DNA of 64,000 nt from a virus, in the IMG/VR virus record IMGVR_UViG_3300010399_000032. One strand, written 5' to 3'. The notes under the pieces were generated by a model. It saw only the letters and a program-made list of their open reading frames with translations, made no database searches and had not been told where the DNA came from. The number at the start of each line of letters is the position of its first letter. The first letter of the stretch is position 1. Shown piece after piece: positions 30,532 through 47,441 of this stretch. A program made the position numbers and the translations under genes.

Positions 30532-30607
30532 TGATCCCGGAGGGACTCGAACCCCCATGCGTCCATTACTGTTTCAATACGTTCGAAGCGTAAGCAGATA
30601 CGGGACC
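30532..30607 (-). tRNA. Non-canonical tRNA-Arg(TCG) with relocated D-stem
   Basis: Acceptor GGTCCCG/CGGGATC, loop CT-TCG-AA, normal T-arm, no D hairpin. Confidence 0.7.
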
Positions 30608-30818
30608 AAATATGTGAATATTTAACCTAATATTTTCCCTAACATTAATCATAATACTATGCAATACAGGTGCGGATCCTAGGATCAATTGTTCACTAAA
30701 GCCCGGTGACACTCTGGAATCGAGTGAAATTAGTTTATTCCTTATTGCCCCATAGTTGAGGGCGCTGTAATAATGATAATCAATCATGAGAACTACTATA
30801 AAGGTTACCTAAGGAATG

Positions 30819-31112
30819 TCAATGGACAATTTCTAAGGTAACTGGGCATCTTCCTATGGTTTTGCAATTAATTGCAGAGGCCGCGGCTGGGGTCAGATCG
30901 ATATCGTGACCCGGAACAAATGGACCTCTATCATTGATTCGGACAATGACGCTTTTATTACCGTGTTTGACTTTAACGAGAGTACCAAAAGGAAAAGTTC
31001 TGTGTGCGGCTGTCATGCCATTGGGATTAAAATGTTCACCATTTGCGGTAATTTTGCCATAATTATACCAAGTCGCGATTGCTGCAAATGAGGGAAAACA
31101 CATAGCAAACAT
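30819..31112 (-). CDS. RlpA-like (DPBB) lytic transglycosylase
   Basis: TANGEHF...TAAHRT.PFGT...VRINDRGPF...IDL. Confidence 0.9.
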   Translation of the reverse strand: MFAMCFPSFAAIATWYNYGKITANGEHFNPNGMTAAHRTFPFGTLVKVKHGNKSVIVRINDRGPFVPGHDIDLTPAAASAINCKTIGRCPVTLEIVH

Positions 31113-31166
31113 AAAAATAATTGCTAGTAAAAGTTTTATTTGTTCGACTCCTAACTGTTAACAACG

Positions 31167-31673
31167 TTAACTATTTAGGAGAGAATAAACCTCACTTTCC
31201 CGAGCATGGGCTTCAACTTCCCATGGCCAACTAAAGTAATCGTCATTATTATCGGTATCAATGCGCTTTCCGAGCCAGGCCGAGGCATGACCGGAAGCAT
31301 AATCCTTTAACTCACCCTTGGCAAATTGCTTAACATGGATCATTTCATGGGCCAAGGTTAGAAGCATACGCTTCTTAGACTTATTCCATGTGACATTAAT
31401 TTGGAATTCTCTCGGGCGATGATTGGAGTCCAACCATGTCATGTCGCCATGGAAGTGCTTATCGTCCTGTACAAACTTGATGAAAAGGGTAATCTTGTTG
31501 GTCAGACGAGGACCAGCAAGATAATTGAGGTAGGTCTGGCAAGCTTCCTGGATTTGACGCTTGGTCAATCCGCGGTGCTTACCAGTAATGTGAACCTTTA
31601 ATTGGTTAATTTCTGCGGGTTGGTTCATCTGGTAAATGAAGCGCGACAGAATATCAAAGGTAGTTATTTGCAT
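31167..31673 (-). CDS. HExxH metallopeptidase-like protein
   Basis: TLAHEMIHVKQ...PWEVEA. Confidence 0.75.
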   Translation of the reverse strand: MQITTFDILSRFIYQMNQPAEINQLKVHITGKHRGLTKRQIQEACQTYLNYLAGPRLTNKITLFIKFVQDDKHFHGDMTWLDSNHRPREFQINVTWNKSKKRMLLTLAHEMIHVKQFAKGELKDYASGHASAWLGKRIDTDNNDDYFSWPWEVEAHARESEVYSLLNS

Positions 31674-31719
31674 ACCTCCAATATAAGCATCATTTCACAG
31701 ATTTCAAGGGCGGAGGCGT

Positions 31720-31750
31720 AAAAAAAGGTGTGACAATTAAGCCACACCTT
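31720..31750 (-). terminator. Rho-independent terminator
   Basis: AAGGTGTG/CACACCTT hairpin plus T-run on the minus strand. Confidence 0.6.
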
Positions 31751-31776
31751 CAATTCCTAGCGCTTTTCCTTTGTTA

Positions 31777-32295
31777 TTAGGCAGCAGGAGCGGCGGTTGG
31801 GTCAGTAGGTGCAGGAGCAGGTGCTGGATCTGGTGCAGGAGTTGCGGCTACGGCGGCAGTGGTGTTAGCTACAACGGTAGCAACATTAGCCTGGGTAGAA
31901 CCAACAGTAGCCTGGAGTTCTGCAACCACGTTAGCAATATCTTGTGTCGTGGCCACAATCAAGGCTGGGTCAATCTTTTCAGCGGTCAATGCAGCAAGTT
32001 GAGAAGTCAAGGTAGTAACCTGTCCTTCCAAGGTGTTTACATTGGCTTCAACTGAGGCAAGATTGCCTGCAACTTCACCGGCAACAGTTTGCAAAGATGC
32101 AACCTGTGCTGTAAGTGCGTCGAATTCTTGTGACATATCTTCCAATCTCTCTTTCTGGTAAATGAAATTTAGTTTCTGGCGGGTGAGTAAGGTTTCTAAA
32201 AGTTCGGCAAGTTCATCAAATGGATCACGTTCACGCCCCATATTACGAAACCAACTCTTTAATTTTAACATTGTATGATTTCCCTTGCTTTTCAT
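31777..32295 (-). CDS. Coiled-coil Ala/Thr-rich protein with Pro-Ala tail (late gene; start uncertain)
   Basis: Heptad pattern; TATAAATA at 32299-32306. Confidence 0.55.
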   Translation of the reverse strand: MKSKGNHTMLKLKSWFRNMGRERDPFDELAELLETLLTRQKLNFIYQKERLEDMSQEFDALTAQVASLQTVAGEVAGNLASVEANVNTLEGQVTTLTSQLAALTAEKIDPALIVATTQDIANVVAELQATVGSTQANVATVVANTTAAVAATPAPDPAPAPAPTDPTAAPAA

Positions 32296-32347
32296 ACCTA
32301 TTTATACTCACCCGCTTTTAAGGGAGTTGAATCTTGCGTGAATTTAA

Positions 32348-32764
32348 TCAAAACCCAACGCGGGCATTAAATCCTGGAGTATGAACCCCTGCATAAAATC
32401 CGGGTAAGAAGGTTGGTTGTTCATAAACATAATCATAACCCGGAGAAGCATTTAGCTGCCCTCGTATAACCAGGGTCTTACCATCTTTGGAAGCCGCGGA
32501 TAAATGATCATATACATTATTAAATTCGGAATTTGTCATTCCTACAGAAATTGCCATAGTATTTCGATTCGGATTATAACATCCTAGGATTTCATGACCA
32601 TTTCTATAGGGAATGGTGTTTAGATCGCATAATTTAGGTAATTGATCGGGTTGCCCTCTAACAATTTGGACGGCGGTATGAGATTCAATAAGAGGGGCTG
32701 CCATGGCAGGGACAGCGGAAAGTGAAAGAATCGTTGCAAGTGCAATAAGTGAATTTTTAATCAT
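32348..32764 (-). CDS. Secreted hypothetical protein
   Basis: Signal peptide ending in AMA. Confidence 0.55.
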   Translation of the reverse strand: MIKNSLIALATILSLSAVPAMAAPLIESHTAVQIVRGQPDQLPKLCDLNTIPYRNGHEILGCYNPNRNTMAISVGMTNSEFNNVYDHLSAASKDGKTLVIRGQLNASPGYDYVYEQPTFLPGFYAGVHTPGFNARVGF

Positions 32765-32786
32765 AGTACATTACCTTTCATATTAA

Positions 32787-32863
32787 TGGTACCTCTTGTT
32801 GGGCTCGAACCAACAATTCCTTCCTTATGAGGGAAGTGAGGAGACCTGCTCCTCCCAAGAGGC
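32787..32863 (-). tRNA. tRNA-Met/Ile2(CAT)
   Basis: Cloverleaf, loop CT-CAT-AA, 5-bp D-stem, CCA. Confidence 0.8.
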
Positions 32864-33392
32864 ACTTGATCCGGAGGTTTTGCCCACCTTATTAAGGTAA
32901 TGTAGATTAGTTTAATTGGTTGCATTAATTTTTCGATATAATGCATGTTGAATTCGTGAAATTTCTATTGCTACAGCGTTACCACTAAAACTATGTGCGA
33001 AAATAGAATATCCGCCGTCGAACAATGCACCGGCCACTATAGGTTTGATTTGTAAAAGTTTAAGGATACGACTAACGTTTTTCATTCAACAAAATTGAAT
33101 CTATAGCAACCAGGATATTCCAGGAAATCACATCAATTGTCCGGACATACTTGGTTTCAAATATGGTTGCAACCTTATCTGTACAAACATTCACCTGTTC
33201 ACCCGGTATCAATGCCCTTAGTTTGTGTGTAATTCTTGCCATAGATATTATGATACTCTCGCATTTCACGAATTAAAAGCAATACAATACCTTCAATTAT
33301 TGTACCGGAACCTCTCGGCCAGAGATTCTGAATCGGAAACAATTCAGAATTTTCATAATGAATAACAATCCTCATCAATTGCGAAGAAACGC

Positions 33393-34067
33393 CTACCAAA
33401 CCTTTTCCATGTGACCGTTCAGGAATTCTTTCACTCGACATGTTTTACCTGTTATATGATTAGTTACACGGTCATTTTGAAATTGGATGGTAATAATTTT
33501 GTCTCCCCGTTCACCTGAACCCAATTTGTCCTTTTTATCTTTTGCACGTATTTCAGAAACATTTCTTTCCTCCTGGCGTGCGATTCTGGCCGCCAGCGCA
33601 ATTCGTGCATCACGTTCATTATTGGCCCGGCTACGAGATTGACGCGATTCTGACATTCCTGTGACTGGATCTGTAACCCGGACAGAATTCTGGGATTTAT
33701 TCCTATGTTGCCCACCTGCTCCGGTACCGGAGAAGAAAACACATTCAAAGCGAGAGGATATGTTTTCAATTGGGAGAAAGGATGGACTCGCTTCATTTAA
33801 ACATGCAACCGTTACGGTGGAGGTATGGACCCGACCTTTGCGCTCAGTTGGTGGCACTCGCTGAATTCGGATACCACCATTTTGGTTATCAAGGAGCGAT
33901 AAATCTTTTCCATCAAAAGATAATATTACACCTCTCCCCGCAGGGAGTCAAGTGATTTCCCAACCCTGGAGAAAAGCCAATTTCTCATAGGCTTTTGCTA
34001 GGTCAGTTACGAATAATTCCGAATCTTTACCACCTTCAGCCGGCAGGATGTGTACTGTACGTTTCAT
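33393..34067 (-). CDS. RF1-like peptide chain release factor lacking domain 1, with in-frame TGA at codon 40
   Basis: ILPAEGG...(TGA at 33948-33950)...GGIRIQRVPPTERKGRVHTS, GAGGQHRNK. Confidence 0.85.
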
Positions 34068-34603
34068 ATATCACCTATTCTAAATGTAAGTTGATCCCGA
34101 ATATCTCCAATTAGCAAACGTTGCCTTACCATATAAGCGCTTTGACCTGGTGGTTTCTCCGACCCATTATAATAACTTCCAAAAAATATGTTCCGTAGGG
34201 AATCAACATCCTTAGCCGGTTTTGTTATTTTGGTTCTAACGCTTGTCGGTTTGTGCATCTGCTTTTATTTTAATGGCCCATTGTACCAAACCTGTATCAT
34301 ATTTCATGTTAATTAAACTGGCAAGGGTATAATAGATCATATATTGTTTGGCATCTACTATAGTTTTAGTTCGCTTAAGACCATTTGTTATTTCAAAATG
34401 AACAGATTGCATAATTCTATAGCCCTTGTCTGGGGTTATCAGGTTCCAAACTGCGGGAGGGCTCTCCGAATGCTTGACTACGGGCATCGGCCTTATAGAA
34501 GCGTGATTCCGATGCTTCTACCCACCGTGGCCAAATCTTTAGCGAGGCGGCCCACCTCGGATAACTTATATCCATAATGTTAGTAACCTCGCTTTATAAA
34601 AGA

Positions 34604-34697
34604 TGGTGCGCCGACCTGGGCTCGAACCAGGGATGCTCTCCAATCGGGAGACTATGCCGATTATAAGTCGGGTGTTTTACCACTAAACTATCAGCGC
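34604..34697 (-). tRNA. tRNA-Ile(TAT) with long variable arm
   Basis: Loop CT-TAT-AA, 24-nt variable hairpin, A73, CCA. Confidence 0.82.
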
Positions 34698-34698
34698 G

Positions 34699-34789
34699 TA
34701 ACGGGTATGGGATTCGAACCCATGACCTTCTTTCTCAGAAGGGTACCGGCTTATGAGACCGGTGAGGTAGACCACTCCTCAAACCCGCA
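34699..34789 (-). tRNA. Initiator-like tRNA-Met(CAT) with long variable arm
   Basis: 1:72 mismatch, loop CT-CAT-AA, 22-nt variable hairpin; CCA not encoded. Confidence 0.75.
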
Positions 34790-34816
34790 ACTATGACTGG
34801 ATTTCTCCAGAATTTA

Positions 34817-34892
34817 TGGTGCGCGAGGTGGGGGTTGAACCCACGCTACTTAGTTCCTAAGACTAATGACTCTACCATTGGTCTACTCGCGC
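34817..34892 (-). tRNA. tRNA-Leu(TAG), short variable loop
   Basis: Cloverleaf, CCA. Confidence 0.88.
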
Positions 34893-34896
34893 AAAC

Positions 34897-34971
34897 TGGT
34901 ACCTCTCAGGGGGATCGAACCCACTATGCACGGTTCCACAGACCGCGGTTCTACCATTGAACTAGAGAGGC
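34897..34971 (-). tRNA. tRNA-His(GTG), alphaproteobacterial type
   Basis: A73, no encoded G-1. Confidence 0.88.
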
Positions 34972-35147
34972 ATCTTTAATGTATCGTTTATGGATTTTAG
35001 TTCGAAGTGAACTTTTAAGGGCCATATCCAATTGACCTATGTCTATGTTCCAGGCCTCATAATCCCATTCGAGTTGATTTTCTACTTTATCAAGAAATCT
35101 ATTATAATAGAATCCCTTGGGATATAAAACTCTTGATACTTGTTTCA

Positions 35148-35222
35148 TGGTGCCGTATATCGGAATCGAACCGATGACCTATTCCTTACCAAGAAATTAC
35201 ACTGCCACTGTGTTAATACGGC
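35148..35222 (-). tRNA. tRNA-Thr(GGT)
   Basis: Cloverleaf, CCA. Confidence 0.88.
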
Positions 35223-35223
35223 A

Positions 35224-35532
35224 TTATCTCTTTGTGAATGTAAAGGTTGGCTCATAACTTTCATTATATGCCGGTTTATCATAAACCACTTTCCATCCGG
35301 CTGCCCGATACATGGGTTCAATATTTAGCCAACCTTTGTCGAAAACTTCATCCCTGGTCTTACCAGTAGCAGCCATCAAAGCTGCGATGGCGTCACATTG
35401 GTCAATTGTAGTGCTGCCATTGGAAAAATTCAATGCAATCAATTTATTCCAAGCCGCAATAACCTCGGGTGGTAATATTACACCCAGATAAGAACCGACT
35501 TCATCGGGGCTAATAGGCTTCACATTATCCAT
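35224..35532 (-). CDS. Conserved phage hypothetical protein
   Basis: WLNIEPMYRAAGWKVVYDKPAYNE motif. Confidence 0.65.
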   Translation of the reverse strand: MDNVKPISPDEVGSYLGVILPPEVIAAWNKLIALNFSNGSTTIDQCDAIAALMAATGKTRDEVFDKGWLNIEPMYRAAGWKVVYDKPAYNESYEPTFTFTKR

Positions 35533-35548
35533 AATTATGTCCTAAAAT

Positions 35549-35625
35549 TGGTGAACCCCGTGAGGTTCGAACTCACGTTGACACGGATTAAGAGTCCGTC
35601 GCTAAACCAACTCAGCTAGGGGTCC
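35549..35625 (-). tRNA. tRNA-Lys(CTT)
   Basis: Cloverleaf, CCA. Confidence 0.92.
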
Positions 35626-35629
35626 ATAT

Positions 35630-35707
35630 TGGCGCCGCAGACCGGGCTCAAACCGGCATTACACTGATTGAAAGTCAGTTTTCCTAGTTCAATTAGAAGA
35701 CTGCGGC
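35630..35707 (-). tRNA. tRNA-Glu(TTC)
   Basis: Cloverleaf, G73, CCA. Confidence 0.85.
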
Positions 35708-35990
35708 ATTAAACGTAACAAAACTCGAAACATAGTGTGGAACCAAAACCAGTCGGGACCAATTTTTTTCCTAATCCTTTGATGGTGACCGGTTTCTTAT
35801 TTCCATTTAATTGGATGTTTTGGCCGACCATAGACAAATATTCCGAATATTTCCTTTTTAAATCGAATGTCATCGGATCGAATCCGCCTAACCCAACATA
35901 AAAAGCTTTTTTCACTCTTTTTCCATTAAACTCTTGGTTACTTGAGTTACCAAGATAATCGGCGTTAATATTCCTCATGACAAATTTTCC

Positions 35991-36247
35991 TTACTGTGAC
36001 GAGACTTGAACTCATATCTCCGGCTTCCAATTGCAAATGCTATTGCCGGCGTTTTACCTCAAAATATCCTCACTCATATTCCCATTCTAATGCATATAAC
36101 TTACTTTGGCAACCGAACCTGTCTAGCCCTTCCCTAGCTCACGGTTTTTATAGCTTTTGCAATTGTTATTCGATTGTGGTTTCTTCTATAGCAGTTAGAA
36201 TTTTCCGATAAGGTCTTGAATATTTCACATATTAGACTACACAGTAA
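35991..36247 (-). ncRNA. Expanded tRNA-like RNA with a large D-loop insertion
   Basis: TTACTGTG/CACAGTAA acceptor, TAGTCT...GGTAAAAC, CCGGC/GCCGG stem, T-arm TTCAAGT. Confidence 0.55.
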
Positions 36248-36249
36248 CT

Positions 36250-36325
36250 TGGATCCTCAAGGAGGCTTCGAACCTCCAACCTTCTCCTTCAGAGGGAGTT
36301 GCTCCGCCAGTTAAGCTATTGAGGA
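36250..36325 (-). tRNA. tRNA-Gln(CTG)
   Basis: Cloverleaf, U1-A72, CCA. Confidence 0.85.
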
Positions 36326-36332
36326 ATATTAA

Positions 36333-36414
36333 TGGTGATCTGGGCCGGACTCGAACCGACATACTCCACTTACGGTGTTAACGACGGCTTCGTAGACCGT
36401 GCCGATACCAGACC
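36333..36414 (-). tRNA. Non-canonical tRNA-Arg(ACG) with relocated D-stem
   Basis: Acceptor, ACGGT-CTACGAA-GCCGT, T-arm, ACCA; no D hairpin. Confidence 0.75.
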
Positions 36415-36675
36415 GAATTTTCACCCATGGAACCTGCCGGTTCCTCGAAACTCATTGTAATCCCAGCTATTGTGGTGCACCACTCAGGGATGACCGCTCT
36501 TTCTACAATTTTGTTTTTTGGGTCTGGGGTAACCCTTTCCCCTTCCGGGGGAAAATGAATAGGAGCACCAGTCACACATACCGAGTCATTGTTCTGGTGA
36601 ATAAAATCCAAGCGCTCGGTGAAGCTCTTAAAGGATTTCAGGCGAATATGTTACCATACCGTCAAACTCCTAACT

Positions 36676-36749
36676 TGGTGCCCCTAGAGGAAATCGAATC
36701 CTCTTTAGCCGGTTGAGAACCGGAGTTCCTACCAATAGAAGATAGGGGC
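36676..36749 (-). tRNA. tRNA-Glu(CTC)
   Basis: Cloverleaf, CCA. Confidence 0.87.
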
Positions 36750-36753
36750 AATC

Positions 36754-37095
36754 TTAGACGATTTTTACTTTAAACCCAAGCTTCTGAGAAATTTCATCCA
36801 CAGTAAGTTCAATGGCCTTGGCTTTACGAAATCGGCGGATATCAAAAGGAATATCATCAGATGATACCTTCCCAATTCTCACACCCTCAAGTCTCAAACC
36901 AACATAAAAACCGATGATTGGATCCTTATCTGGCCTTGGGCGAATTACAATCTCTCGAACCTTATAATGTTTGTTTGGCTTTAACTCCATACTAGAGATA
37001 GGTAGTAACTCGGATGGTTGCGTCTCAGCCAACTGGACAAAATTTCCAGGAAGCATCCAATCCTGAATGTTATAGTCACTCATAATAAACCTCAC
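36754..37095 (-). CDS. Hypothetical protein
   Basis: C-terminal ELTVDEI..KLGFKVKIV phage motif. Confidence 0.55.
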   Translation of the reverse strand: MRFIMSDYNIQDWMLPGNFVQLAETQPSELLPISSMELKPNKHYKVREIVIRPRPDKDPIIGFYVGLRLEGVRIGKVSSDDIPFDIRRFRKAKAIELTVDEISQKLGFKVKIV

Positions 37096-37494: not shown

Positions 37495-37572
37495 TGGTGA
37501 CCCATGGGGGATTCGAACCCCCGCACGACGGTTTTAGAGACCGCTGGTATAACCAACACTACCAGATGGGTC
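37495..37572 (-). tRNA. Amber-suppressor tRNA (anticodon CTA)
   Basis: Complete cloverleaf GACCCAT/ATGGGTC, GCGGT-CTCTAAA-ACCGT, A73, CCA. Confidence 0.88.
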
Positions 37573-39897: not shown

Positions 39898-39972
39898 TGG
39901 TAGGGCCCGGCAGACTCGAACTGCCGTATTGCGGATAACGTTATCTTCCGCCTAAGCTTCCTTGCTTGCCCC
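39898..39972 (-). ncRNA. Degenerate tRNA-like element
   Basis: T-arm and ACCA intact; 11-nt anticodon loop; weak acceptor and D arms. Confidence 0.4.
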
Positions 39973-39976
39973 ATAA

Positions 39977-40108: not shown

Positions 40109-40738
40109 TTAGACTCGACCTTTATACCATCCATCCGGTATGGAGTCAAGCTTTTTAATTTTTCTATTGGTGATACCATCCGTTATCCACATGGTACCAA
40201 ATTGGGAATTTTTTGTTCCAGTTTGGTGAATTGAATTTGCTTCACCAATTTTTCGTTTGGTTTCTAATGAATGGTTTCGGCCAACCCAATGGTGTATATA
40301 ACCAGCTTGATGTGTTTTAATTAATAAAGAATTTGAAATATTTGCAGACCATTCCTGTTTCCAATTAGAATTCTGCATTAATAATTGTAAATTTTTTGTT
40401 CCAATTTTCCTGTTTTCTTTTGCTATTTCAGCATGTTTAGGATAATTCCATAATTCATTTTGGTTAATATATCCAAACCCACCTTTACCACCTTCACAAA
40501 GATTATAACTCTGCTCGGAAATTACTACCAACTCCTTTTCCTTGGCATTCATTTCTTCCTCAGTCTGGAATACATGGAGGATTTCCTTGGTAAAATTGGA
40601 TTTACCGTATTTTTGAATGGCTCTCCTGATTAATCTACCGGAGCCCATATAACCATCGTTGAGGTCTTTGGTTTGATGCTTCCCGATATAGAATTTACCG
40701 TTGAGGTTATTAGTTATTTTATAGATGGTATAAAACAA
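40109..40738 (-). mobile_element. GIY-YIG homing endonuclease (Seg-like), copy B
   Basis: Same motifs as copy A, plus a NUMOD3-like HSLETKRKIGEA. Confidence 0.9.
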
Positions 40739-40742
40739 TTAG

Positions 40743-40793: not shown

Positions 40794-40797
40794 AATG

Positions 40798-40868: not shown

Positions 40869-41028
40869 TAAAAAATCTGTGGTAGCCCATTGGTTATCAA
40901 GAAACGACCAGGCATATGACCTCCTGGCTACCACCACAATTTGCAAGGCTGGTGTGCATTTACCGCAGCAATCCTCACACCATTTAACAATCAAGTTTTA
41001 TCGCCAGAGGCTTCTTGATTGCACCTAT

Positions 41029-41102
41029 TGGAGCGAGCGGAGGGAATCGAACCCTCGTCTAAACGTTGGCAACGTCTGGCTCTACCATTGAGCTACGCCA
41101 GC
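41029..41102 (-). tRNA. tRNA-Gly(GCC)
   Basis: Cloverleaf, U73, CCA. Confidence 0.88.
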
Positions 41103-41109
41103 ATTAATT

Positions 41110-41183
41110 TGGCACGTCAACTCAGAGTCAAACTGAGGCCCTCGGGTTTGGAGGCCGATGTGCTATCGTAACACTTTTGACGT
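41110..41183 (-). tRNA. tRNA-Trp(CCA)
   Basis: Loop CT-CCA-AA, G73, CCA. Confidence 0.8.
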
Positions 41184-41191
41184 GTATAAAC

Positions 41192-41267
41192 TGGTGCCTA
41201 AGGAGGAAATCGAATCCCCGACGCGTGGATCTTCAATCCACCGCTCTACCGACTGAGCTACATAGGC
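41192..41267 (-). tRNA. tRNA-Phe(GAA)
   Basis: Cloverleaf, CCA. Confidence 0.9.
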
Positions 41268-41275
41268 ATAAAATT

Positions 41276-41350
41276 TGGTAGTCCTACACGGCTTCGAACC
41301 GCAGATACACCCCTATCAAGGGCGCGTTTTTCCAACTAAACTATAGGACC
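41276..41350 (-). tRNA. tRNA-Ile(GAT)
   Basis: Cloverleaf, CCA. Confidence 0.87.
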
Positions 41351-41351
41351 A

Positions 41352-41428
41352 TGGCTCCGGTCGCTGGTTTCGAACCAGCCGTACATTGATTAACAGTCAA
41401 TTGCCTCCACCAAGTTGGCTTGACCGGA
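41352..41428 (-). tRNA. tRNA-Asn(GTT)
   Basis: Cloverleaf, G73, CCA. Confidence 0.9.
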
Positions 41429-41488
41429 ATAATTCTTAATTTATATCATAATATGGAAAGAATGGCAATAGAGTACCTATTATTTATT

Positions 41489-42100
41489 TCAAGTAAGCAC
41501 CAATGAACCATTATTGCCGGGATTGCCGTTTAGACCGCCGTTCTCGCCGGTGCCACCGGCGCCGCCGGAACCGACTGATACGGTTATCGCCACACCAGCC
41601 GAAAAGAGTGAGGCCGTCTTTATAGCCCGACCACCTGTGCCTCCTGCTCCACCTGAGCCGGCGCCAATACCTGCTCCACCTGAGCCGCCGGTACTGCCGC
41701 CGGCCGTGGTGTTAATATCGCCACCCGAGGCCGTGCCGGAAGCGCCGGCCGATCCGTTTGCGGTAGGGTTGCGCTGGCCGCCTTGGCCGCCACCGCCACC
41801 GTTGCCGGTCACGCCGTTTAGACTAGTCTGTCCCCCGGTGCCGCCGGTGCCGGCTATCTGTTGTGTCGAACCACCACTTTCGGAGCCTCCACCACCACCA
41901 CCTCCCGCGGCAATCGCGTCAACTTTGGCGCTAAATGTAAATAGCGGGGTAAGAGTCCATGAGCCGGGCCCGAAGGTGACGGCGCCATTAGCATCAAGGT
42001 CCCATAAGGTTCGCCCTGAAACCGCAGGAGAAATATTAAACTGTCTCGGAGCATATCCGAAACCACCTATAGCAGCGCCAAGCCCTGGTACAATAGTCAT
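41489..42100 (-). CDS. Glycine-rich protein (tail-fibre/polyglycine-like domain)
   Basis: GGxGG repeats, locally GC-rich, TAAATA upstream at ~42131. Confidence 0.6.
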   Translation of the reverse strand: MTIVPGLGAAIGGFGYAPRQFNISPAVSGRTLWDLDANGAVTFGPGSWTLTPLFTFSAKVDAIAAGGGGGGGSESGGSTQQIAGTGGTGGQTSLNGVTGNGGGGGQGGQRNPTANGSAGASGTASGGDINTTAGGSTGGSGGAGIGAGSGGAGGTGGRAIKTASLFSAGVAITVSVGSGGAGGTGENGGLNGNPGNNGSLVLT

Positions 42101-42145
42101 AGAATCTTCCTAAATCGATGAATGATCACCTATTTAGGAAGAATT

Positions 42146-42346
42146 TTAAATGTTTACCCCTGAAAGTGACAGTGGATGAACTAGCAACACAATACCTGCA
42201 ATTGCCCATATCAACCATCCTAGGATGGCTTTAAGCCCACCATCCATGAACGGTGCTGTAGAAATCAACCAATTCAATCCAACTGCAACTGCAATAACGA
42301 CAATAGCAAAAATTGCAAATGTTAATAGTGCTGTGGCTGTAATCAT
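42146..42346 (-). CDS. Small two-TM membrane protein
   Basis: Starts MITATALL after a GAGG RBS. Confidence 0.55.
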   Translation of the reverse strand: MITATALLTFAIFAIVVIAVAVGLNWLISTAPFMDGGLKAILGWLIWAIAGIVLLVHPLSLSGVNI

Positions 42347-42363
42347 TGATTGCTTCCTCTTAT

Positions 42364-42438
42364 TGGAGCGGCCAGGGAGATTCGAACTCCCGACGTATTG
42401 CTTGGAAGGCAATCATTCTACCCCTGAATTATAGCCGC
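42364..42438 (-). tRNA. tRNA-Gly(TCC)
   Basis: Cloverleaf, U73, CCA. Confidence 0.9.
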
Positions 42439-42440
42439 AT

Positions 42441-43133
42441 TTATTTCTTCAAAAGTTTATCAATAGAATCTAATGTGGCAAACCAGGAAATGTTGTTATT
42501 ATCACTCTGGACGAACGATGCTAACCCCACCAAATAGTATTGCCCATTTATATTTGCATATAATCCACCACCTGAATTACCTACATCAAGTGGTACGGAC
42601 GTTCGATAAAATAATCCAGAAATATCTGGAACAGGAGACTTGGTTACTGACCCGAATTCTCCATTAGTCTTTAAAATACCTTCCGCTCTAGGAAAACCTA
42701 CGGTGAATAAAGCATCACCAAATTGTGGGATATATCCTTTTGGGGCCAGTTGAACATATGGTTCTTTAATACTGGTATCTTGTAATTTCAAAATAGCTAT
42801 ATCATTGGATATATCTAATGAAACCAATGATAATTTATAATGAGTTTCAGTTACAACGTTAAGATTGGTATCTACCGAAACGTCATGCAAACTAAATGAG
42901 GTTCCCACCTTTCCATTATCCGCAACACAGTGACCGGCTGTTAAATATTCTGTGGGGCTAATAAATTCACCCGAACAGGTAGCGGATTCTGCATTACCCG
43001 ATGCATCAGCCATACCAGAAGTGTAAAGTTCCTTGGTTGCTGATTGAATGGTGGCTAAACTACTCGCAAAAACAGGGCTCGATAATCCAAGGATTAATCC
43101 AACCCCTATGATAACTGATTTGAAAATATTCAT
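42441..43133 (-). CDS. Secreted trypsin-like serine protease
   Basis: Signal peptide; LTAGHC, DIAIL, GNSGGGL catalytic triad. Confidence 0.9.
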   Translation of the reverse strand: MNIFKSVIIGVGLILGLSSPVFASSLATIQSATKELYTSGMADASGNAESATCSGEFISPTEYLTAGHCVADNGKVGTSFSLHDVSVDTNLNVVTETHYKLSLVSLDISNDIAILKLQDTSIKEPYVQLAPKGYIPQFGDALFTVGFPRAEGILKTNGEFGSVTKSPVPDISGLFYRTSVPLDVGNSGGGLYANINGQYYLVGLASFVQSDNNNISWFATLDSIDKLLKK

Positions 43134-43178
43134 AATGTCTCCTTTCATGGAAACCCTATTTATGAATATTTTCGAAAA

Positions 43179-43268
43179 TGGTGGGTCCCCGAGGACTCGA
43201 ACCTCTCGTCCACCCCCTACCGGTTTCATAGACAGCGGTTTTACAGACCGCAGGCAGGAAAGGGACCC
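43179..43268 (-). tRNA. Non-canonical tRNA-Tyr(GTA) with relocated D-stem
   Basis: GGGTCCC/GGGACCC-ACCA, GCGGT-CTGTAAA-ACCGC, no D hairpin. Confidence 0.75.
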
Positions 43269-43272
43269 GAAA

Positions 43273-43366
43273 TGGCGGATAGTGTAGGATTTGAACCCAC
43301 GGAACGGGATGATTACCGTTCAACAGTTTTCAGGACTGCCGGCATAAGCCACTCGCCCAACTATCC
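43273..43366 (-). tRNA. tRNA-Ser(TGA)
   Basis: Long variable arm, G73, C33. Confidence 0.88.
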
Positions 43367-43375
43367 ATTAAATTT

Positions 43376-43454
43376 TGGTGGACTCGGTCGGAATCGAACC
43401 GACCTCAGCCTCCTTGCAAGGGAGGCTCGCCTAACCCTTGGTACATTCGAGCCC
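43376..43454 (-). tRNA. tRNA-Ala(TGC)
   Basis: G3:U70, loop CT-TGC-AA, CCA. Confidence 0.85.
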
Positions 43455-43531
43455 ATTGAATTTTGGATGACCTCAGGCTTTCCAGTCATCCCGATTGAGA
43501 TTTTACCACCAATGGTACTCAATCATATTTA

Positions 43532-43608
43532 TGGCGTCGGGCGTGGTTCTAACCCACATTCGAGTTTCCGGTTGTTCCTACCGGGCTCAGCATCATGCTA
43601 TACCCAAC
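43532..43608 (-). ncRNA. Degenerate tRNA-like element ending in GCCA
   Basis: Acceptor-like GTTGGGT/GCCCGAC, CCGGT/ACCGG stem, aberrant T loop. Confidence 0.35.
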
Positions 43609-43613
43609 AAAAA

Positions 43614-43687
43614 TGGCGGTTCCAAGGGGAATCGAACCCCTGTGACTTGATAGACGGTCAAGCATTCTACCATTGAACTATGGAACC
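43614..43687 (-). tRNA. tRNA-Asp(GTC)
   Basis: Cloverleaf, G73; unusual loop CC-GTC-TA. Confidence 0.85.
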
Positions 43688-43692
43688 AAAAA

Positions 43693-43864
43693 TGGCACAT
43701 TCCGCGGGATTCGAACCAGTCCACCGTCACAGTGGCTTTTTACGCATCTCCAGGCCCGAAACCAAACAAGCTTTTGACTGACTAGGTCTAATCACTGGGT
43801 ATATTTGGCTGGTTTCCTTACGGCCCAACCGACCTGGTGTTTTACCATTTACTACTAGGAATGT
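43693..43864 (-). ncRNA. Expanded tRNA-like RNA with insertions in the anticodon loop and T-stem
   Basis: ACATTCC/GGAATGT-GCCA, D-arm ...TGGTAAAAC, CCAGG/CCTGG enclosing ~75 nt, GGTTCGAATCC. Confidence 0.6.
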
Positions 43865-43867
43865 AAC

Positions 43868-44002
43868 TCGATTACGTCTAAGGTTAATCTTGTGCTGGTC
43901 GGTGTTGAACCGGCATCGAGGCGCTTTCGACACCCCATTTTTCCTTAAACTACATCCAATTTGAGGCCTCGCGATGGCCATGTTAACCTTAGACGTAATC
44001 GA
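43868..44002. repeat. 20-bp perfect inverted repeat enclosing a tRNA-like core
   Basis: TCGATTACGTCTAAGGTTAA (43868-43887) / TTAACCTTAGACGTAATCGA (43983-44002). Confidence 0.8.
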
Positions 44003-44321
44003 ATAGAAATTTTCCAGTACCGAAGTCACGCCAACGATTTTGTGACTTTCACCCTTCTCGGGCACATTACCAGGCTCATCCCCATCGCGGTGCCTGTTTC
44101 AAACATACTGGCAGGTAGGGCAATTTTCGACTATCACCACAACCTCAAGCTTACCAGGATTGTTCTAGAATTTGCCTGGTATAGCCTTTGAACTAAATTG
44201 GTGCGGCACTCTCTGCGGGCTTTTACCACACTTATCGCATGTCTGGCCGTTGTGTCGCGGAAAACCAGAAGTGCTTTCTGTGACAGAGGAAGCCAATTGG
44301 TCTTATTTTCCTCTGTCAAAT

Positions 44322-44398
44322 TGGTCTGGCTAGAAAGATTCAAACTTTCGACCCCCTGGTCCCAAGCCAGGTGCTCTATCAAGCTGAGCTATAGCCAG
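44322..44398 (-). tRNA. tRNA-Pro(TGG)
   Basis: C1-G72, A73, CCA. Confidence 0.85.
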
Positions 44399-44480
44399 TC
44401 AAGAATTTAATGGGCCAATGTTTTGATAACCGAGAATTGGTCCTTTACACCTTTCGGCGCACCTCTATACTCGGTAGAAA

Positions 44481-44559
44481 TGGTCGGCCCTGTGGGATTC
44501 GAACTCACGATCCCCTGCTCCCAAAGCAGGTGCTTTAAACCACACTAAGCTAAAAGCCG
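44481..44559 (-). tRNA. tRNA-Pro(TGG), second copy
   Basis: CGG acceptor, CCA. Confidence 0.88.
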
Positions 44560-44796
44560 TTTTAAGAATAAGAAATCTGGGTCTGCCCCAACGCCTGAGG
44601 CGCTATCCTCAAGTTCAATTACCATGGCAGATAGGTTGGATTCGTCCTGTGGTCCGCAGACACACCTTCATCCTCGGGCTTTCGTTCCCAGAAACTAAGC
44701 CGGTGCAGTTTATTTAGCCCGCCGGAAGGCTCTACTCTTATATCCTTCTCCTCACCCCTTGGGTACCTGGGTTCGATACGTCCTGATATAAGAAAC

Positions 44797-45156
44797 TTAA
44801 TACTTCTCCCACCGGTCCTTCATCTTTTCGATGTTTTCCTGAGGAACACCATGGAGATTAACATAGGAACCTTCCATAGTCAAGACCGTTTTGGGGTTGG
44901 GTAAATTCAGATACTTCTGGAATTCCCAAATTCGTGAAAAGGTGTTAGCTACTGCAACATCCGTATTCCTTAACCACCAAAGTACCTCATTATAGCACCA
45001 TTCGTGGGCCTGTGGCAACTTCGATGGATTGAACTGATATTCGCCAGCATTCTCAAAAAACTGGTCGGACTCAACTACCTTGACTCCGAGTTTGTGGGCA
45101 AAAGTACTCTTACCAGAGCCAGGAAGCCCACGAATGATATAAAGATGGTTCATCAT
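44797..45156 (-). CDS. P-loop polynucleotide kinase-like protein (AAA_33)
   Basis: RGLPGSGKST, AHEWC, NTF, HGVP. Confidence 0.82.
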   Translation of the reverse strand: MMNHLYIIRGLPGSGKSTFAHKLGVKVVESDQFFENAGEYQFNPSKLPQAHEWCYNEVLWWLRNTDVAVANTFSRIWEFQKYLNLPNPKTVLTMEGSYVNLHGVPQENIEKMKDRWEKY

Positions 45157-46155
45157 TTATCCATATAAGTGTCAACCCAAAGGGACCAGACACCCCGCGC
45201 TTCCTTCTCGGTCAACCCGTAGGTATCAGCCAGAATAGGAGCAGCACCAAACATATTCACCAGACCCGACTCGCGGAGAGCATCGAGGAAGCCATAGAAC
45301 TTCTTAAGCTCATCCTGGGTAAAAACACGGGTACTATTCGAGGTATTCTTGGTCATCACGACCTCGTTCTCTAAACTCATAATGGAGATATAATGCTTAT
45401 CCTCAGATTTTCAATGGTCAGAATTTGAAATATTTTTGCGTTGTTTTTGCTTTTCAGAGAATTCTTTTGTATGTTTCATCGCCTGATCAATGGCTTTTTG
45501 CAAGTTAACGATTTTAAGGTATAACATCAAACCATCTTGCCAACCATCTTCCTTACATCCGGCTAATGCATAAGTCACTAATTCTGTTTGCATTTCGCTT
45601 GCAGTTTTAGCGATATAACTCAAATCAGACTTATAAAACTTAGTCATATCACCGATTCATCTTTTAATATACATCAAACCCAATTCACTTACAGGTTTAT
45701 AACCGTTAGATAATAATTCCTCTTTGGTCTTGGAATTCTCATATAATAGTTTTACCGCGTTATTACTAATTGGTTGAACGCCAATTAATTCCTGCGCAAT
45801 TTTATTTGGGCCGTTTTCCCGTATTTTTCGTAATTCATCCGGATTTAGCATTAAACACCATCACCCAGGTGCAAATCATGTATCATCTTGGCTGCCATAA
45901 TAATCCCAAATAGGATTAAACCAATGACAAAAACTAACTCGGTGTAAAAGATGATCTGGCTCATTTAATATTTAGAATACGAATAAATCATAACAAAAAT
46001 CAATGTAAGTACAGCCGAGAATATTGCTGTAATGAAAAATCTATTTTGAATGTCTGGATATGGAAGCCAAATGGCCAATAACCCGGTAACAATCACTATA
46101 ATTCCCGTGACCCAAAACATCCAAGCTTTAATCATCATATTCTCATTATTTAATG

Positions 46156-46231
46156 TGGTGCGCAAGGTGGGGGTTGAACCCACGCTACCAGCGTTTTGAG
46201 GGCTGCGACTCTACCTTTGGTCTACTTGCGC
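46156..46231 (-). tRNA. tRNA-Leu(CAA), short variable loop
   Basis: Cloverleaf; paralog of Leu(TAG). Confidence 0.85.
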
Positions 46232-46473
46232 TTAAAATCCGTGAGTATCATATGGTTCGCGAACCCTGGTATCACCCAAAAATGAACTATACATACCAGA
46301 CGCGAGAGAAATTATAACCAACACAATGGCGGTTGCTATCATACTTGATTGAGTGTCACCCGATTCCCAACAAGCAATAAGGGCACCTAACCCAGCCGAA
46401 ATTGCTGCAAATAAAGAAACAATACCCCAGAATAATCGATAACCTTCACTCTTATGCATTTTATATCCTATTA

Positions 46474-46551
46474 TGGTGCTCCCACTGGGATTCGAACCCA
46501 GACTGGGCGGGATTTAAATCCGCTGCCTCCTACCGGTTGGGCTATGAGAGC
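46474..46551 (-). tRNA. tRNA-Leu(TAA), short variable loop
   Basis: Cloverleaf, CCA. Confidence 0.85.
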
Positions 46552-46563
46552 AATTTCTAAAAC

Positions 46564-46640
46564 TGGTGCTCCTGGAGGAACTCGAATCCTCACTTGACAC
46601 CTCCTCAAGGTGGTTCCTCTACCTATTGGGATACAGGAGC
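46564..46640 (-). tRNA. tRNA-Leu(GAG), short variable loop
   Basis: Cloverleaf, CCA. Confidence 0.83.
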
Positions 46641-47359
46641 TAATTTATTCATGTATTCTATACCAGAATTGGTGATCTTGGCAAGAGTAACTTTTTTACG
46701 AACACCATCACCAATTCGGCACAATGTCATATATTTATGACTCAAAAGGAATTTCATTGCTGGTTCTTGCACCAGGGCGAAGCACCATTTGATATTCACA
46801 GAAACTCCATCAAGTGCATGGGCCCTATGAAGGATTTCCAGTTTTCTCTTTGCAGAATTGGAAATCCTATTACTCATGTCGTATACCTAAACACAAAATC
46901 CTTCTTAGGACCACGTTTTGTACTAGCATATGGATAAAACTTACCCTTGATCCTCTTCCTTATAGTCACCACAAAAGCCCTCATGGAACCAATATGCCAA
47001 TGATCAACACCAGGTTGCTTTACATTGTAGAGACGCCAAGGTACCTTCACCTCACCGGCTGAATTTGCATCGCGCCAGGCATTCCGACGTTCGGCGCGAT
47101 ATGTACTCGAATCTCTAATCATTCCACTTTCTCCAATTCAGGTCCTTTTAGGAAGGTATTGAAATCGAAATCCTTACCTTTTTGGACAATCCTAGCTCGG
47201 GTAAATCCCTCATAGAAATTTGGAGAGATTTCCTTGGCCTGTGGTAGAGTTGAAATGAAAACTCGACCGGCGATCTGATTTTCTACGGGTTCCTCGAAAC
47301 GGGCTCGACCATAGAAATATTCAACAAAAAATTCAGGGGTTTCCATGACAATTCCAAAA

Positions 47360-47441
47360 TGGTGATCCTGGCCGGGCTCGAACCGACATACTCCACTTAC
47401 GCTATTAACGACCGCTTAGAAGGCGGTGGCGATACAGGACC
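47360..47441 (-). tRNA. Non-canonical tRNA-Arg(TCT) with relocated D-stem
   Basis: ACCGC-CTTCTAA-GCGGT, T-arm, ACCA; paralog of 36333-36414. Confidence 0.75.

What the first reader, a model, noticed from the sequence alone, without database searches (positions are those of the whole stretch)
30532..47441. Four tRNAs with a rewired fold: D-stem partner and GG motif moved 3' of the anticodon arm
Seen: Arg(TCG) 30532-30607, Arg(ACG) 36333-36414, Arg(TCT) 47360-47441 and Tyr(GTA) 43179-43268 have normal acceptor, anticodon and T arms. Only 7-10 nt remain where the D hairpin should be, and the variable region is 20-28 nt and contains TGGA. The short 5' segment is complementary to the variable segment, with compensatory changes: TA(T)CTG/CAGTA, TA(T)CGG/CCGTA, TA(T)CGC/GCGTA, and TCCTGCC/GGTAGGG in Tyr. 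In each case TGGA follows, resembling D-loop G18-G19-A20 (A20 is the ArgRS identity element). The only Tyr-anticodon gene and 3 of 4 Arg genes in the window are of this type. Inference: an alternative topology that rebuilds the L-shape elbow, perhaps to evade host tRNA-targeting defences. The Tyr variable region can also form a local hairpin, so its pairing is less certain.
Basis: partly seen in the sequence, partly recalled or inferred. Interest (0 to 1): 0.86.

Follow-up and report, generated by a model that had tools for sequence, protein, structure and literature searches.

The report
Phage tRNAs with a permuted core
Four genes in this soil phage's tRNA cluster encode three arginine tRNAs and the only tyrosine tRNA, and none is a cloverleaf: one strand of the D stem and the D loop lie after the anticodon arm, a layout that selection maintains in several hundred viral sequences and that I could not find described in print.

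Summary
On the minus strand, Arg(UCG) 30532-30607, Arg(ACG) 36333-36414, Arg(UCU) 47360-47441 and Tyr(GUA) 43179-43268 have normal acceptor, anticodon and T arms but no local D hairpin. ARAGORN misses all four. The Arg genes score 27.6-28.9 bits on Rfam tRNA (threshold 29); canonical neighbours score 45-66.

The long-range pairing is real. In 162 distinct Arg-type relatives from IMG/VR, collected without constraining the distal strand, two pairs are Watson-Crick in 162/162 and one uses all four pair types. The third pair holds in 118/162. The relocated loop keeps GGA, and its A15/U48-equivalent positions covary (A:U 157, G:C 4, A:C 1). In 23 Tyr-type sequences the 6-bp helix is 95% paired, with double-sided changes at four pairs. 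It crosses a 3-bp variable-arm stem, making a pseudoknot.

A canonical Arg(CCU) paralogue in the window shows that the core is circularly permuted, not lost. The family is essentially viral. This scan had met it before on other DNA (Felix O1-like and crAss-like phages).

Expression, charging and the proposed defence-evasion motive are untested.

Verdict: a real, conserved, apparently undescribed tRNA architecture.

The parts
30532..30607 (-). tRNA-Arg(UCG), rewired, short-linker subtype, 76 nt, no encoded CCA. Proximal strand CTG 30595-30597; anticodon 30584-30586; distal strand CAG 30569-30571; D-loop-like TAATGGACGCAT 30557-30568; T arm 30540-30556.
   Evidence: R1 model 65.4 bits; Rfam tRNA 28.2 bits against threshold 29. 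Streptomyces phage TunaTartare has the same linker and loop with a compensated helix, CCG/CGG.
36333..36414 (-). tRNA-Arg(ACG), rewired, 79 nt plus CCA. Proximal strand CGG 36402-36404; anticodon 36391-36393; distal strand CCG 36373-36375; D-loop-like TAAGTGGAGTAT 36361-36372; T arm 36344-36360.
   Evidence: R1 90.0 bits; Rfam tRNA 28.9 bits. Lies 7 nt upstream of tRNA-Gln(CUG).
47360..47441 (-). tRNA-Arg(UCU), rewired, 79 nt plus CCA. Proximal strand CGC 47429-47431; anticodon 47418-47420; distal strand GCG 47400-47402; D-loop-like TAAGTGGAGTAT 47388-47399; T arm 47371-47387.
   Evidence: R1 97.5 bits; Rfam tRNA 27.6 bits. About 120 GenBank phages have a homologue over most of its length.
43179..43268 (-). 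tRNA-Tyr(GUA), rewired and pseudoknotted, 87 nt plus CCA. Proximal strand CCTGCC 43253-43258; anticodon 43242-43244; variable-arm stem 5' GTC 43231-43233; distal strand GGTAGG 43216-43221; GG loop 43211-43215; variable-arm stem 3' GAC 43208-43210; T arm 43190-43206.
   Evidence: Best Rfam match is tRNA-Sec at 24.1 bits, threshold 47. Starts 4 nt after the CCA of tRNA-Ser(UGA).
23181..23257 (-). Canonical tRNA-Arg(CCU). It serves as the internal reference for the permutation: it has the same acceptor stem and T stem as the rewired Arg(UCU).

Best explanation
These are working elongator tRNAs whose core is circularly permuted. In a cloverleaf the order is 8-9, D-stem 5' strand (10-13), D loop (14-21), D-stem 3' strand (22-25), 26, anticodon arm, variable region (44-48), T arm. 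Here the order is 8-9, a strand in the place of 22-25, 26, anticodon arm, a linker, a strand in the place of 10-13, a D-loop-like segment (T-A-R...GGA...A), one nucleotide in the place of 48, T arm. The two D-stem strands therefore pair around the anticodon arm and stack on it. The relocated loop can still give G18-G19 to the canonical T loop, A14 to U8 and R15 to Y48, and it presents A20 to ArgRS. In Tyr the distal strand and the GG sit inside the loop of a 3-bp class-II variable-arm stem, so the fold is a pseudoknot. Shown: the helices, their conservation, and the 15:48-type covariation. Inferred: the L shape, processing by RNase P, charging by host ArgRS and TyrRS, and use by EF-Tu and the ribosome. 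The selective reason is unknown. My guess is resistance to a nuclease, from the host or from the phage, that reads the cloverleaf core.
For: Arg helix, sample 1: in 36 sequences gathered with a pattern that left the helix free, it is 100% paired with only double-sided changes; register shifts fall to 36-48%. Arg helix, samples 2 and 3: in 162 distinct 5'-anchored sequences, pair 11-42 is C-G in 162/162 with the G unconstrained. Pair 12-41 is CG 63, UA 43, GC 38, AU 18. Pair 13-40 is Watson-Crick in 115 and GU in 3. The 15:48-equivalent positions read A:U 157, G:C 4, A:C 1, G:U 0, Fisher p = 1.8e-7. GGA is kept in 93/95 and 66/66 unconstrained loops. The canonical Arg(CCU) paralogue has an identical acceptor and T stem. 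Its GCTC+AACTGGAAA lines up with GCGT+AAGTGGAGTA, and its GAGC+T lines up with TCGC+C. Tyr: 22 of 50 pattern hits have a 7/7 acceptor stem and all 22 share the architecture. The helix is 94.9% paired, with double-sided changes at 4 of 6 pairs. The crossing stem is 89.9% paired with CG/GC/UA at its middle pair. RNAalifold finds the long helix unaided, and it is worth about 6.6 kcal/mol. Signs of tRNA function: canonical anticodon loops, G1-C72 and A73 in Tyr, encoded CCA in three of four, tandem spacing with ordinary tRNAs, and the gaps they fill in an otherwise complete set. Arg is 4.1% and Tyr 3.7% of the phage's codons. Paralogues ACG and UCU differ by compensated changes in the acceptor stem, the long-range helix and the anticodon stem, while the unpaired segments outside the anticodon loop are nearly identical. 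Edelmann et al. 2024 (PMC11551756) report that E. coli HisRS, EF-Tu and the ribosome accept a D-armless tRNA.
Against: There is no RNA evidence of any kind. No RNA run holds the stretch, and nothing shows processing, modification or charging. The Arg helix is only 2-3 bp and is energetically neutral by nearest-neighbour rules, within 0.3 kcal/mol. RNAalifold does not predict it. In the main ACG subgroup the third pair is usually N:A. The G15:C48 class has only four sequences, and two of them look related. Relatedness among sequences inflates all the counts. The assignment of canonical numbers to the relocated nucleotides is my inference from one paralogue comparison.
Confidence: 0.7

Rival explanations
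1. They are tRNA mimics that are not used in translation. They could be decoys or sponges for host tRNA-targeting nucleases or for tRNA-binding enzymes, or processing signals in the tRNA transcript.
For: Standard tools reject them. The island holds other tRNA-like oddities. No charging evidence exists.
Against: A decoy need not keep A20, the anticodon, A73 with G1-C72, CCA and a Levitt-type pair all together. They fill exactly the specificities missing from an otherwise complete set: the only Tyr gene and three of four Arg genes. In REP9, the Felix O1-like record examined, the gene occupies a slot in an otherwise ordinary tRNA array.
Confidence: 0.15
2. They are D-armless tRNAs of the mitochondrial tRNA-Ser(GCU) kind. 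On this view the long-range helix merely lengthens the anticodon stem, the GG-bearing strand is a passive connector, and there is no tertiary core or rigid elbow.
For: The topology is formally an extended anticodon helix with an asymmetric internal loop. [quoted passage not shown]
Against: According to that paper, the mitochondrial tRNA has lost C56, the U54-A58 pair and the G19:C56 contact. The phage genes keep a canonical TTCGA T loop, GG, A20 and covarying 15:48-equivalent positions. U8-A9 and the T-A after the distal strand are invariant wherever they were left free.
Confidence: 0.1
3. They are decaying tRNA pseudogenes, and the complementarity is chance.
For: Sub-threshold Rfam scores. 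One copy lacks CCA.
Against: Several hundred related sequences come from contigs of 6 to over 500 kb and from phages of Escherichia, Salmonella, Listeria, Streptomyces and Pseudomonas. Their stems are intact and their changes are compensatory.
Confidence: 0.02
4. They are ordinary cloverleaves read wrongly. The first hairpin would be an oversized D arm and the real anticodon would lie in the 'variable' region. This is how the 121Q record reads the homologous gene as tRNA-Leu(taa), and how relaxed ARAGORN reads Stop(tta) and Ile(tat).
For: Relaxed ARAGORN forces such folds on two of the four. The RefSeq record of phage 121Q annotates the homologue as tRNA-Leu(taa).
Against: Those folds need G33, stem mismatches and 2-3 bp D stems. 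They differ from paralogue to paralogue and are absent for two of the four.
Confidence: 0.02

Closest known systems
Canonical bacterial and phage tRNA-Arg, for example the Arg(CCU) at 23181-23257 of this window; Rfam RF00005
   Same: Acceptor stem, anticodon arm, T arm, U8-A9, A14-R15, G18-G19-A20, Y48 and the discriminator. The acceptor and T stems are even identical to those of the rewired Arg(UCU).
   Different: The order of the core segments. Strand 10-13 and loop 14-21 lie after the anticodon arm. There is no local D hairpin, and an extra 3-11 nt linker follows the anticodon stem. Rfam scores fall to 27.6-28.9 bits, against 45-66 for the canonical tRNAs of the island.
Bacterial class-II tRNA-Tyr(GUA)
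   Same: GUA anticodon loop CUGUAAA, G1-C72, A73, and a variable-arm stem just before the T arm.
   Different: The variable-arm 'loop' is about 20 nt and carries the D-stem partner and the GG motif, which makes a pseudoknot. The T stem is 4 bp plus a non-pair, and U8 could extend the acceptor stem to 8 bp.
D-armless mitochondrial tRNA-Ser(GCU/AGY) of animals (Kuhle et al. 2022, PMC9427863)
   Same: No local D hairpin. The 5' connector joins an extended anticodon helix.
   Different: By that paper's account, the mitochondrial tRNA has no tertiary core, a remodelled T loop and no G19:C56 pair. It needs an adapted synthetase. The phage tRNAs keep all the elbow and core nucleotides, and they occur with phages of many bacterial phyla whose hosts have ordinary synthetases.
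Permuted tRNA genes of Cyanidioschyzon merolae (Soma et al. 2007; from my own knowledge, not checked here)
   Same: The gene order of tRNA segments is a circular permutation.
   Different: There the whole gene is permuted, with the 3' half before the 5' half, and processing restores a normal cloverleaf. Here the acceptor ends are in normal order and only the internal core (10-47) is permuted, so the mature RNA itself must be non-cloverleaf.
allo-tRNAs with 8/4 or 9/3 acceptor/T branches (Mukai et al. 2017, PMC5389517)
   Same: Natural non-standard tRNAs found by mining metagenomes, some of them in phages. The Tyr family may have an 8/4 branch.
   Different: allo-tRNAs remain cloverleaves with a local D arm.
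Engineered D-armless 'mini HisT' in E. coli (Edelmann et al. 2024, PMC11551756)
   Same: It shows that a bacterial synthetase, EF-Tu and the ribosome tolerate a tRNA without a D hairpin.
   Different: It is artificial, with the D arm deleted rather than relocated. The same abstract states that all known bacterial tRNAs are cloverleaves.

Membership tests
tRNA (Rfam RF00005 / cloverleaf) | 7-bp acceptor stem with a discriminator and a 3' CCA, either encoded or able to be added | tested here: met
   7/7 pairs in all four; CCA encoded in three.
tRNA (Rfam RF00005 / cloverleaf) | 5-bp anticodon stem with a 7-nt loop, U33 and a purine at 37 | tested here: met
   CU-NNN-AA loops. Stems covary. Arg(UCG) has 4 bp plus U:U.
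tRNA (Rfam RF00005 / cloverleaf) | T arm with a TPsiC-type loop | tested here: met
   TTCGAGT loop on a 4-5 bp stem.
tRNA (Rfam RF00005 / cloverleaf) | Local D hairpin between positions 9 and 26 | tested here: not met
   Only 7 or 10 nt lie there, and the partner strand is 3' of the anticodon arm.
tRNA (Rfam RF00005 / cloverleaf) | Score at or above the Rfam gathering threshold of 29 bits | tested here: not met
   28.9, 28.2 and 27.6 bits for the Arg genes. No RF00005 match is listed for Tyr; its best match is tRNA-Sec at 24.1 bits against 47.
tRNA (functional definition) | Aminoacylated and used in decoding | not testable with these tools
   No RNA run holds the stretch.
tRNA-Arg identity (E. 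coli rules: A20, C35, U/G36; from established knowledge) | A20 in the D loop, and C35 | tested here: met
   GGA follows the distal strand in all three window genes, and in 93/95 and 66/66 unconstrained relatives. The anticodons are NCG or NCU. Calling this A 'A20' assumes my mapping.
Bacterial class-II tRNA-Tyr | GUA anticodon, A73, G1-C72, long variable arm | tested here: met
   G1-C72 in 23/23. A73 in the window gene. The variable-arm stem is 90% paired with covariation.
Bacterial class-II tRNA-Tyr | Canonical D arm | tested here: not met
   The D-stem partner lies inside the variable-arm loop.
D-armless mitochondrial tRNA-Ser(GCU) type | Loss of the G19:C56 elbow contact and of the tertiary core, with a remodelled T loop | tested here: not met
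   Canonical T loop, GG and 15:48-type covariation are all kept. The family's features are as described in PMC9427863.
Permuted tRNA gene (C. merolae type) | 3' half encoded upstream of the 5' half, with the acceptor ends joined in the precursor | tested here: not met
   The acceptor 5' and 3' strands are at the two ends of the gene, in normal order.
allo-tRNA (8/4, 9/3) | A 12-bp acceptor/T branch split 8/4 or 9/3 | tested here: inconclusive
   In Tyr, column 8 pairs with column 85 as U:G in 18 and U:A in 5, and the outer T-stem pair is broken in 19/23. There are no double-sided changes. The Arg genes are 7/5.

The most novel reading that the evidence does not exclude
A widespread, virus-specific class of translationally active tRNAs that are not cloverleaves. 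The core is circularly permuted, and pseudoknotted in Tyr, yet host ArgRS, TyrRS, EF-Tu and ribosomes across bacterial phyla accept it. On this reading, selection keeps it because the rewired core escapes a nuclease or other factor that recognises the cloverleaf D-arm region of host tRNA-Arg and tRNA-Tyr. That factor could be a host defence or the phage's own host-shutoff enzyme.
Probability: 0.25. Interest if true: 0.95.

Novelty: new variant of a known kind. Interest (0 to 1): 0.85.

Why it matters
The cloverleaf is treated as universal outside animal mitochondria. [quoted passage not shown] If these RNAs are charged and decoded, three things follow.

- The L-shaped core can be built from a different strand order, which would be a natural experiment in RNA topology.
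- Standard finders and annotations systematically miss or mislabel Arg and Tyr tRNAs in phages. They are unannotated in most Felix O1-like records, and the homologue is called tRNA-Leu(taa) in 121Q. Codon-usage and 'missing tRNA' arguments about phages are therefore biased.
- These tRNAs offer new scaffolds for orthogonal tRNA engineering, and a concrete handle on why phages carry their own tRNAs.

Cultured phage-host pairs exist, so every step can be tested at the bench.

Tried and rejected
- Megablast of 12 kb of the island against GenBank phages found no match.
- The exact 24-mer of the window's loop plus T arm is absent from IMG/VR.
- No whole genome is held for the window.
- Single-sequence MFE folding is uninformative; the z-scores are -0.5 to -3.2 and the folds differ.
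- ARAGORN in relaxed and mitochondrial modes gave only inconsistent forced cloverleaves.
- The pattern for the Arg(UCG)-type loop found only one other contig, L179.
- I considered a 2-bp 'vestigial variable stem' in Arg (R33-U54, U34-A53). I dropped it because the short-linker subtypes (AGAA, TGAAA) lack it.
- My first impression that the family is almost only UCU came from the first search pattern. A 5'-anchored scan found ACG in 53 and UCG in 13.
- No RNA holder is listed among the public runs.
- Contigs of four soil-metagenome runs from four studies cover the island at roughly 99% identity. No listed difference falls inside the four genes. The list is truncated and the divergence is too low to test selection.
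- Pfam and PHROGs on about 25 ORFs found no synthetase, CCA-adding enzyme or RNA ligase in the window.
- Five literature searches found no description of this topology. The library does not hold most subscription-journal papers.
- No tool here gives RNA 3D models, so the L shape was not modelled.

Full report
**Context.** The window is part of a T4-like myovirus. It encodes a family-B DNA polymerase (54356-56911), a DnaB-like helicase and a UvsX-like recombinase. It uses the standard code. Its closest catalogued relative shares 58% DNA polymerase identity. Near-identical DNA occurs in soil metagenomes from several studies. All genes run on the minus strand. ARAGORN finds 33 tRNAs and Rfam 29, all on the minus strand, and neither calls the four candidates.

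**Observation.** Each has a 7-bp acceptor stem and an anticodon arm with a C-U-NNN-A-A loop (UCG, ACG, UCU, GUA). Each has a T arm with a TTCGAGT loop and discriminator A, and three encode CCA. Only 7 nt (Arg) or 10 nt (Tyr) lie between the acceptor and anticodon stems, and 20-28 nt lie between the anticodon and T stems.

Against the Rfam tRNA model the Arg genes score 28.9, 28.2 and 27.6 bits (threshold 29). The best match for Tyr is tRNA-Sec at 24.1 bits (threshold 47). The canonical tRNAs of the island score 45-66.

Relaxed ARAGORN can only force two of the four into mutually inconsistent cloverleaves with G33 and stem mismatches. With the Rfam-only Trp(CCA) at 41113-41183, the window covers all 20 amino acids only if these genes are counted. 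Tyr has no other gene, and Arg has only a canonical CCU tRNA at 23181-23257.

**Arg: the long-range helix is real.** BLAST of Arg(UCU) finds about 120 GenBank phages with a homologue over most of its length. Most are Felix O1-like, and the gene is usually unannotated or overlapped by a protein annotation.

- *Sample 1.* A scan of IMG/VR used the loop plus T-arm motif, which leaves the helix free. It gave 33 distinct sequences. Together with the three window genes (alignment A3), columns 11-13 and 40-42 are paired in 36/36. Pair 12-41 is UA 23, GC 9, AU 4. Pair 13-40 is CG 27, GC 6, UA 3. No change is single-sided. Register shifts drop pairing to 36-48%.
- *Samples 2 and 3.* Sample 1 fixed the loop by construction, so I ran two scans anchored only on the 5' half: GTATC, then 8 nt, then the anticodon loop. 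That spacing is impossible in a cloverleaf. Pooling every sequence held that fits these 5'-anchored patterns gave 162 distinct sequences with at least 6/7 acceptor pairs. I defined the distal strand as the 3 nt before a T-A-R-N(0-2)-GG motif. In 143 of the 161 sequences parsed from these two scans (91/95 UCU, 52/66 ACG/UCG) only one such position exists. Pair 11-42 is C-G in 162/162. Pair 12-41 is CG 63, UA 43, GC 38, AU 18. Pair 13-40 is Watson-Crick in 115, GU in 3 and mismatched in 44.

The mismatches are mostly N:A in one ACG subgroup. The universal core is therefore only 2-3 bp. It is energetically neutral, and RNAalifold omits it. The case for the Arg helix rests on covariation.

**Arg: the relocated segment behaves like a D loop.** In the unconstrained samples the distal strand is always followed by T-A. 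Then comes A (157) or G (4), then 0-2 nt, then GGA (93/95 and 66/66). The segment nearly always ends in A-T just before the T stem.

The third nucleotide after the distal strand and the last nucleotide before the T stem covary: A:U 157, G:C 4, A:C 1, G:U 0 (Fisher p = 1.8e-7). This is the pattern of the Levitt pair R15:Y48. The G:C class is small; it comes from four loci, and two of them have similar loops.

The canonical Arg(CCU) in the same window has an acceptor stem and T stem identical to those of the rewired Arg(UCU). Its GCTC+AACTGGAAA (10-13 plus 14-21) lines up with GCGT+AAGTGGAGTA. Its GAGC+T (22-25 plus 26) lines up with TCGC+C.

I therefore read the core as a circular permutation of segment 10-47 into [22-47][10-21]. 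U8, A9, A14, R15, G18, G19, A20, A21 and Y48 are all retained. The numbering is inference. His T8-A contact joins the same two nucleotides as the universal U8:A14 tertiary pair. In two diverged members (L179, L002) the otherwise invariant T10 is G, opposite T. That fits a 13:22-type wobble slightly better than a bulge.

**Tyr: a pseudoknot.** One GenBank phage, Pseudomonas phage Rembedalsseter, has a full-length homologue in which three of the six helix pairs are compensated. A scan required TTTCC 8-13 nt before CTGTAAA, which a class-II cloverleaf cannot satisfy. It gave 50 hits. Of these, 22 have a 7/7 acceptor stem and all 22 share the architecture; the other 28 have 6 or fewer pairs and are chance matches.

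On an unfitted MAFFT alignment (A4, 23 sequences) the 6-bp helix is 94.9% paired, with double-sided changes at four pairs. For example, pair 15-51 is AU 7, CG 7, UA 6, GC 1.

A 3-bp stem directly after the anticodon arm pairs with a strand just before the T arm. It is 89.9% paired, and its middle pair is CG 12, GC 6, UA 4. This stem crosses the long helix. Register shifts give 39-57%. Pairing each proximal strand with another sequence's variable region reaches the observed quality in only 18% of cases, against 96% for the true partners. RNAalifold recovers the long helix unaided. It also suggests that U8 pairs with the nucleotide after the T stem, an 8/4 branch, but that pair shows only one-sided changes.

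Its loop carries the D-stem partner and the GG motif.

**Distribution.** Carrier contigs range from about 6 kb to over 500 kb. Cultured carriers that I verified with model R1 are listed below.

| Phage | Gene | Annotation in the record |
|---|---|---|
| Listeria phage LPML1 | rewired Arg(UCU) | none |
| E. coli jumbo phage 121Q | rewired Arg(UCU) | tRNA-Leu(taa) |
| Streptomyces phage TunaTartare | Arg(UCG), same linker and loop as the window's copy, helix CCG/CGG instead of CTG/CAG | none |

The closest polymerase relative of the window (L002) has a diverged rewired Arg(UCU) about 6 kb downstream of its polymerase gene, much as in the window. Contig L179 carries both rewired types, as the window does. 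In about 185,000 species genomes the main Arg motif occurs four times, always on MAG contigs of 6-41 kb. Two of these lie in tRNA clusters of 7-14 genes. IMG/VR has 51 matches. The family is essentially viral.

SegE-like GIY-YIG endonuclease genes lie in the island, one directly downstream of Arg(UCG). An HNH endonuclease gene lies directly upstream of the copy in Bas93, and HNH endonuclease annotations overlap the matches in several Felix O1-like records. This hints at cassette-like spread, but that is inference.

**Function.** Several things point to decoding tRNAs rather than relics or decoys.

- The anticodon loops and the identity features are conserved.
- Three of the four genes encode CCA.
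- The genes sit in tandem with ordinary tRNAs. Tyr starts 4 nt after the CCA of Ser, and Arg(ACG) ends 7 nt before Gln.
- They fill the gaps in an otherwise complete set.
- The phage's own genes use all six Arg codons (4.1% of codons) and Tyr (3.7%).

The window encodes no synthetase, so host enzymes would have to accept them. Edelmann et al. 2024 show that E. coli tolerates a D-armless tRNA.

Nothing here shows expression or charging. Why the rewiring is kept is unknown, and defence evasion remains a guess. The published precedent concerns anticodon-loop mutations, not the core (PMC10264068, seen), and the anticodon loops here are ordinary.

**Prior knowledge.** Five full-text searches, the 2020 review of non-canonical tRNAs (which mentions neither phages nor permutation) and the 2024 statement quoted above gave no prior description. 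Earlier agents of this scan reached similar readings on other DNA: Felix O1-like Arg genes and a crAss-like Tyr gene. I treated those notes as leads and re-derived the evidence here.

- the canonical paralogue that maps the permutation;
- the independently anchored samples;
- the 15:48-type covariation;
- the ACG and UCG subtypes and the weaker helix in one of them;
- both rewired families together in one T4-like genome.

Noticed in passing
window 41113-41183 (-): tRNA-Trp(CCA) that Rfam finds (45 bits) but ARAGORN misses. Its D loop has no GG, its T loop is TTTGACT (U in place of C56), and the innermost anticodon-stem position is C:C.
   Followed up: partly
window 34604-34697 and 34698-34789 (-): Two adjacent tRNAs with long class-II-like variable-arm hairpins and anticodons UAU (94 nt) and CAU (92 nt; 1:72 is U:U, no CCA). 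A long 'Ile(tat)' also occurs in L002, L179 and L118.
   Followed up: partly
window 39898-39972 (-): A tRNA-like element right after tRNA-Lys(UUU). It has a D arm with GG, a good T arm and an ACCA end. Its acceptor stem is only about 5 bp, and an 11-nt loop sits where the anticodon loop should be.
   Followed up: no
window 37495-37572 (-) and 33393-33857 (-): An intact amber-suppressor tRNA(CUA) in a genome that reads well in the standard code. Nearby is a 154-aa protein with an RF-1 (GGQ) domain, like ArfB or a peptidyl-tRNA hydrolase.
   Followed up: no
window 43376-43454 (-): tRNA-Ala(UGC) with G3:U70 but a 6-bp anticodon stem, a weak D stem and a 4-bp T stem. Rfam gives only 23 bits.
   Followed up: no
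window 29864-30490 (-) and 40109-40738 (-): Two SegE-like GIY-YIG homing-endonuclease genes inside the tRNA island. The first lies directly downstream of the rewired Arg(UCG).
   Followed up: no
window 42441-43229 (-): The mechanical 262-aa ORF starts at an ATG inside the variable region of the Tyr gene and overlaps that gene by 51 nt. The true start is probably further downstream. An automatic annotation would hide the tRNA.
   Followed up: no
L390:55-136 (Escherichia phage 121Q, NC_025447.1 73585-73666): This gene is annotated as tRNA-Leu(taa) but is a rewired Arg(UCU) (98.4 bits on model R1). The 'taa' comes from the conserved CGTTAA linker.
   Followed up: yes
L179 (IMGVR_UViG_3300014613_000100): A 25-kb viral contig with 22 tRNAs, a tmRNA gene, a rewired Tyr (9007-9092) and a rewired Arg(UCU) (7694-7779). 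The Arg gene carries the same loop variant as the window's Arg(UCG).
   Followed up: partly
L112:10200-10268, L237:3413-3478 and others: Some rewired Arg(ACG/UCG) genes carry an extra hairpin between the GGA and the terminal A-U. This amounts to a variable arm inserted into the relocated D loop.
   Followed up: no
window 35991-36066 and 43890-43959 (-): Weak Rfam tRNA matches of about 20 bits. The first lies within the 256-nt tRNA-framed RNA that another first-reader note proposes at 35991-36246; the second lies just beyond the 172-nt one it proposes at 43693-43864.
   Followed up: no
window 58202-58274 (-): A lone tRNA-Gly-like gene with anticodon ACC, a C:C in the acceptor stem and an atypical T arm, 11 kb from the island.
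   Followed up: no
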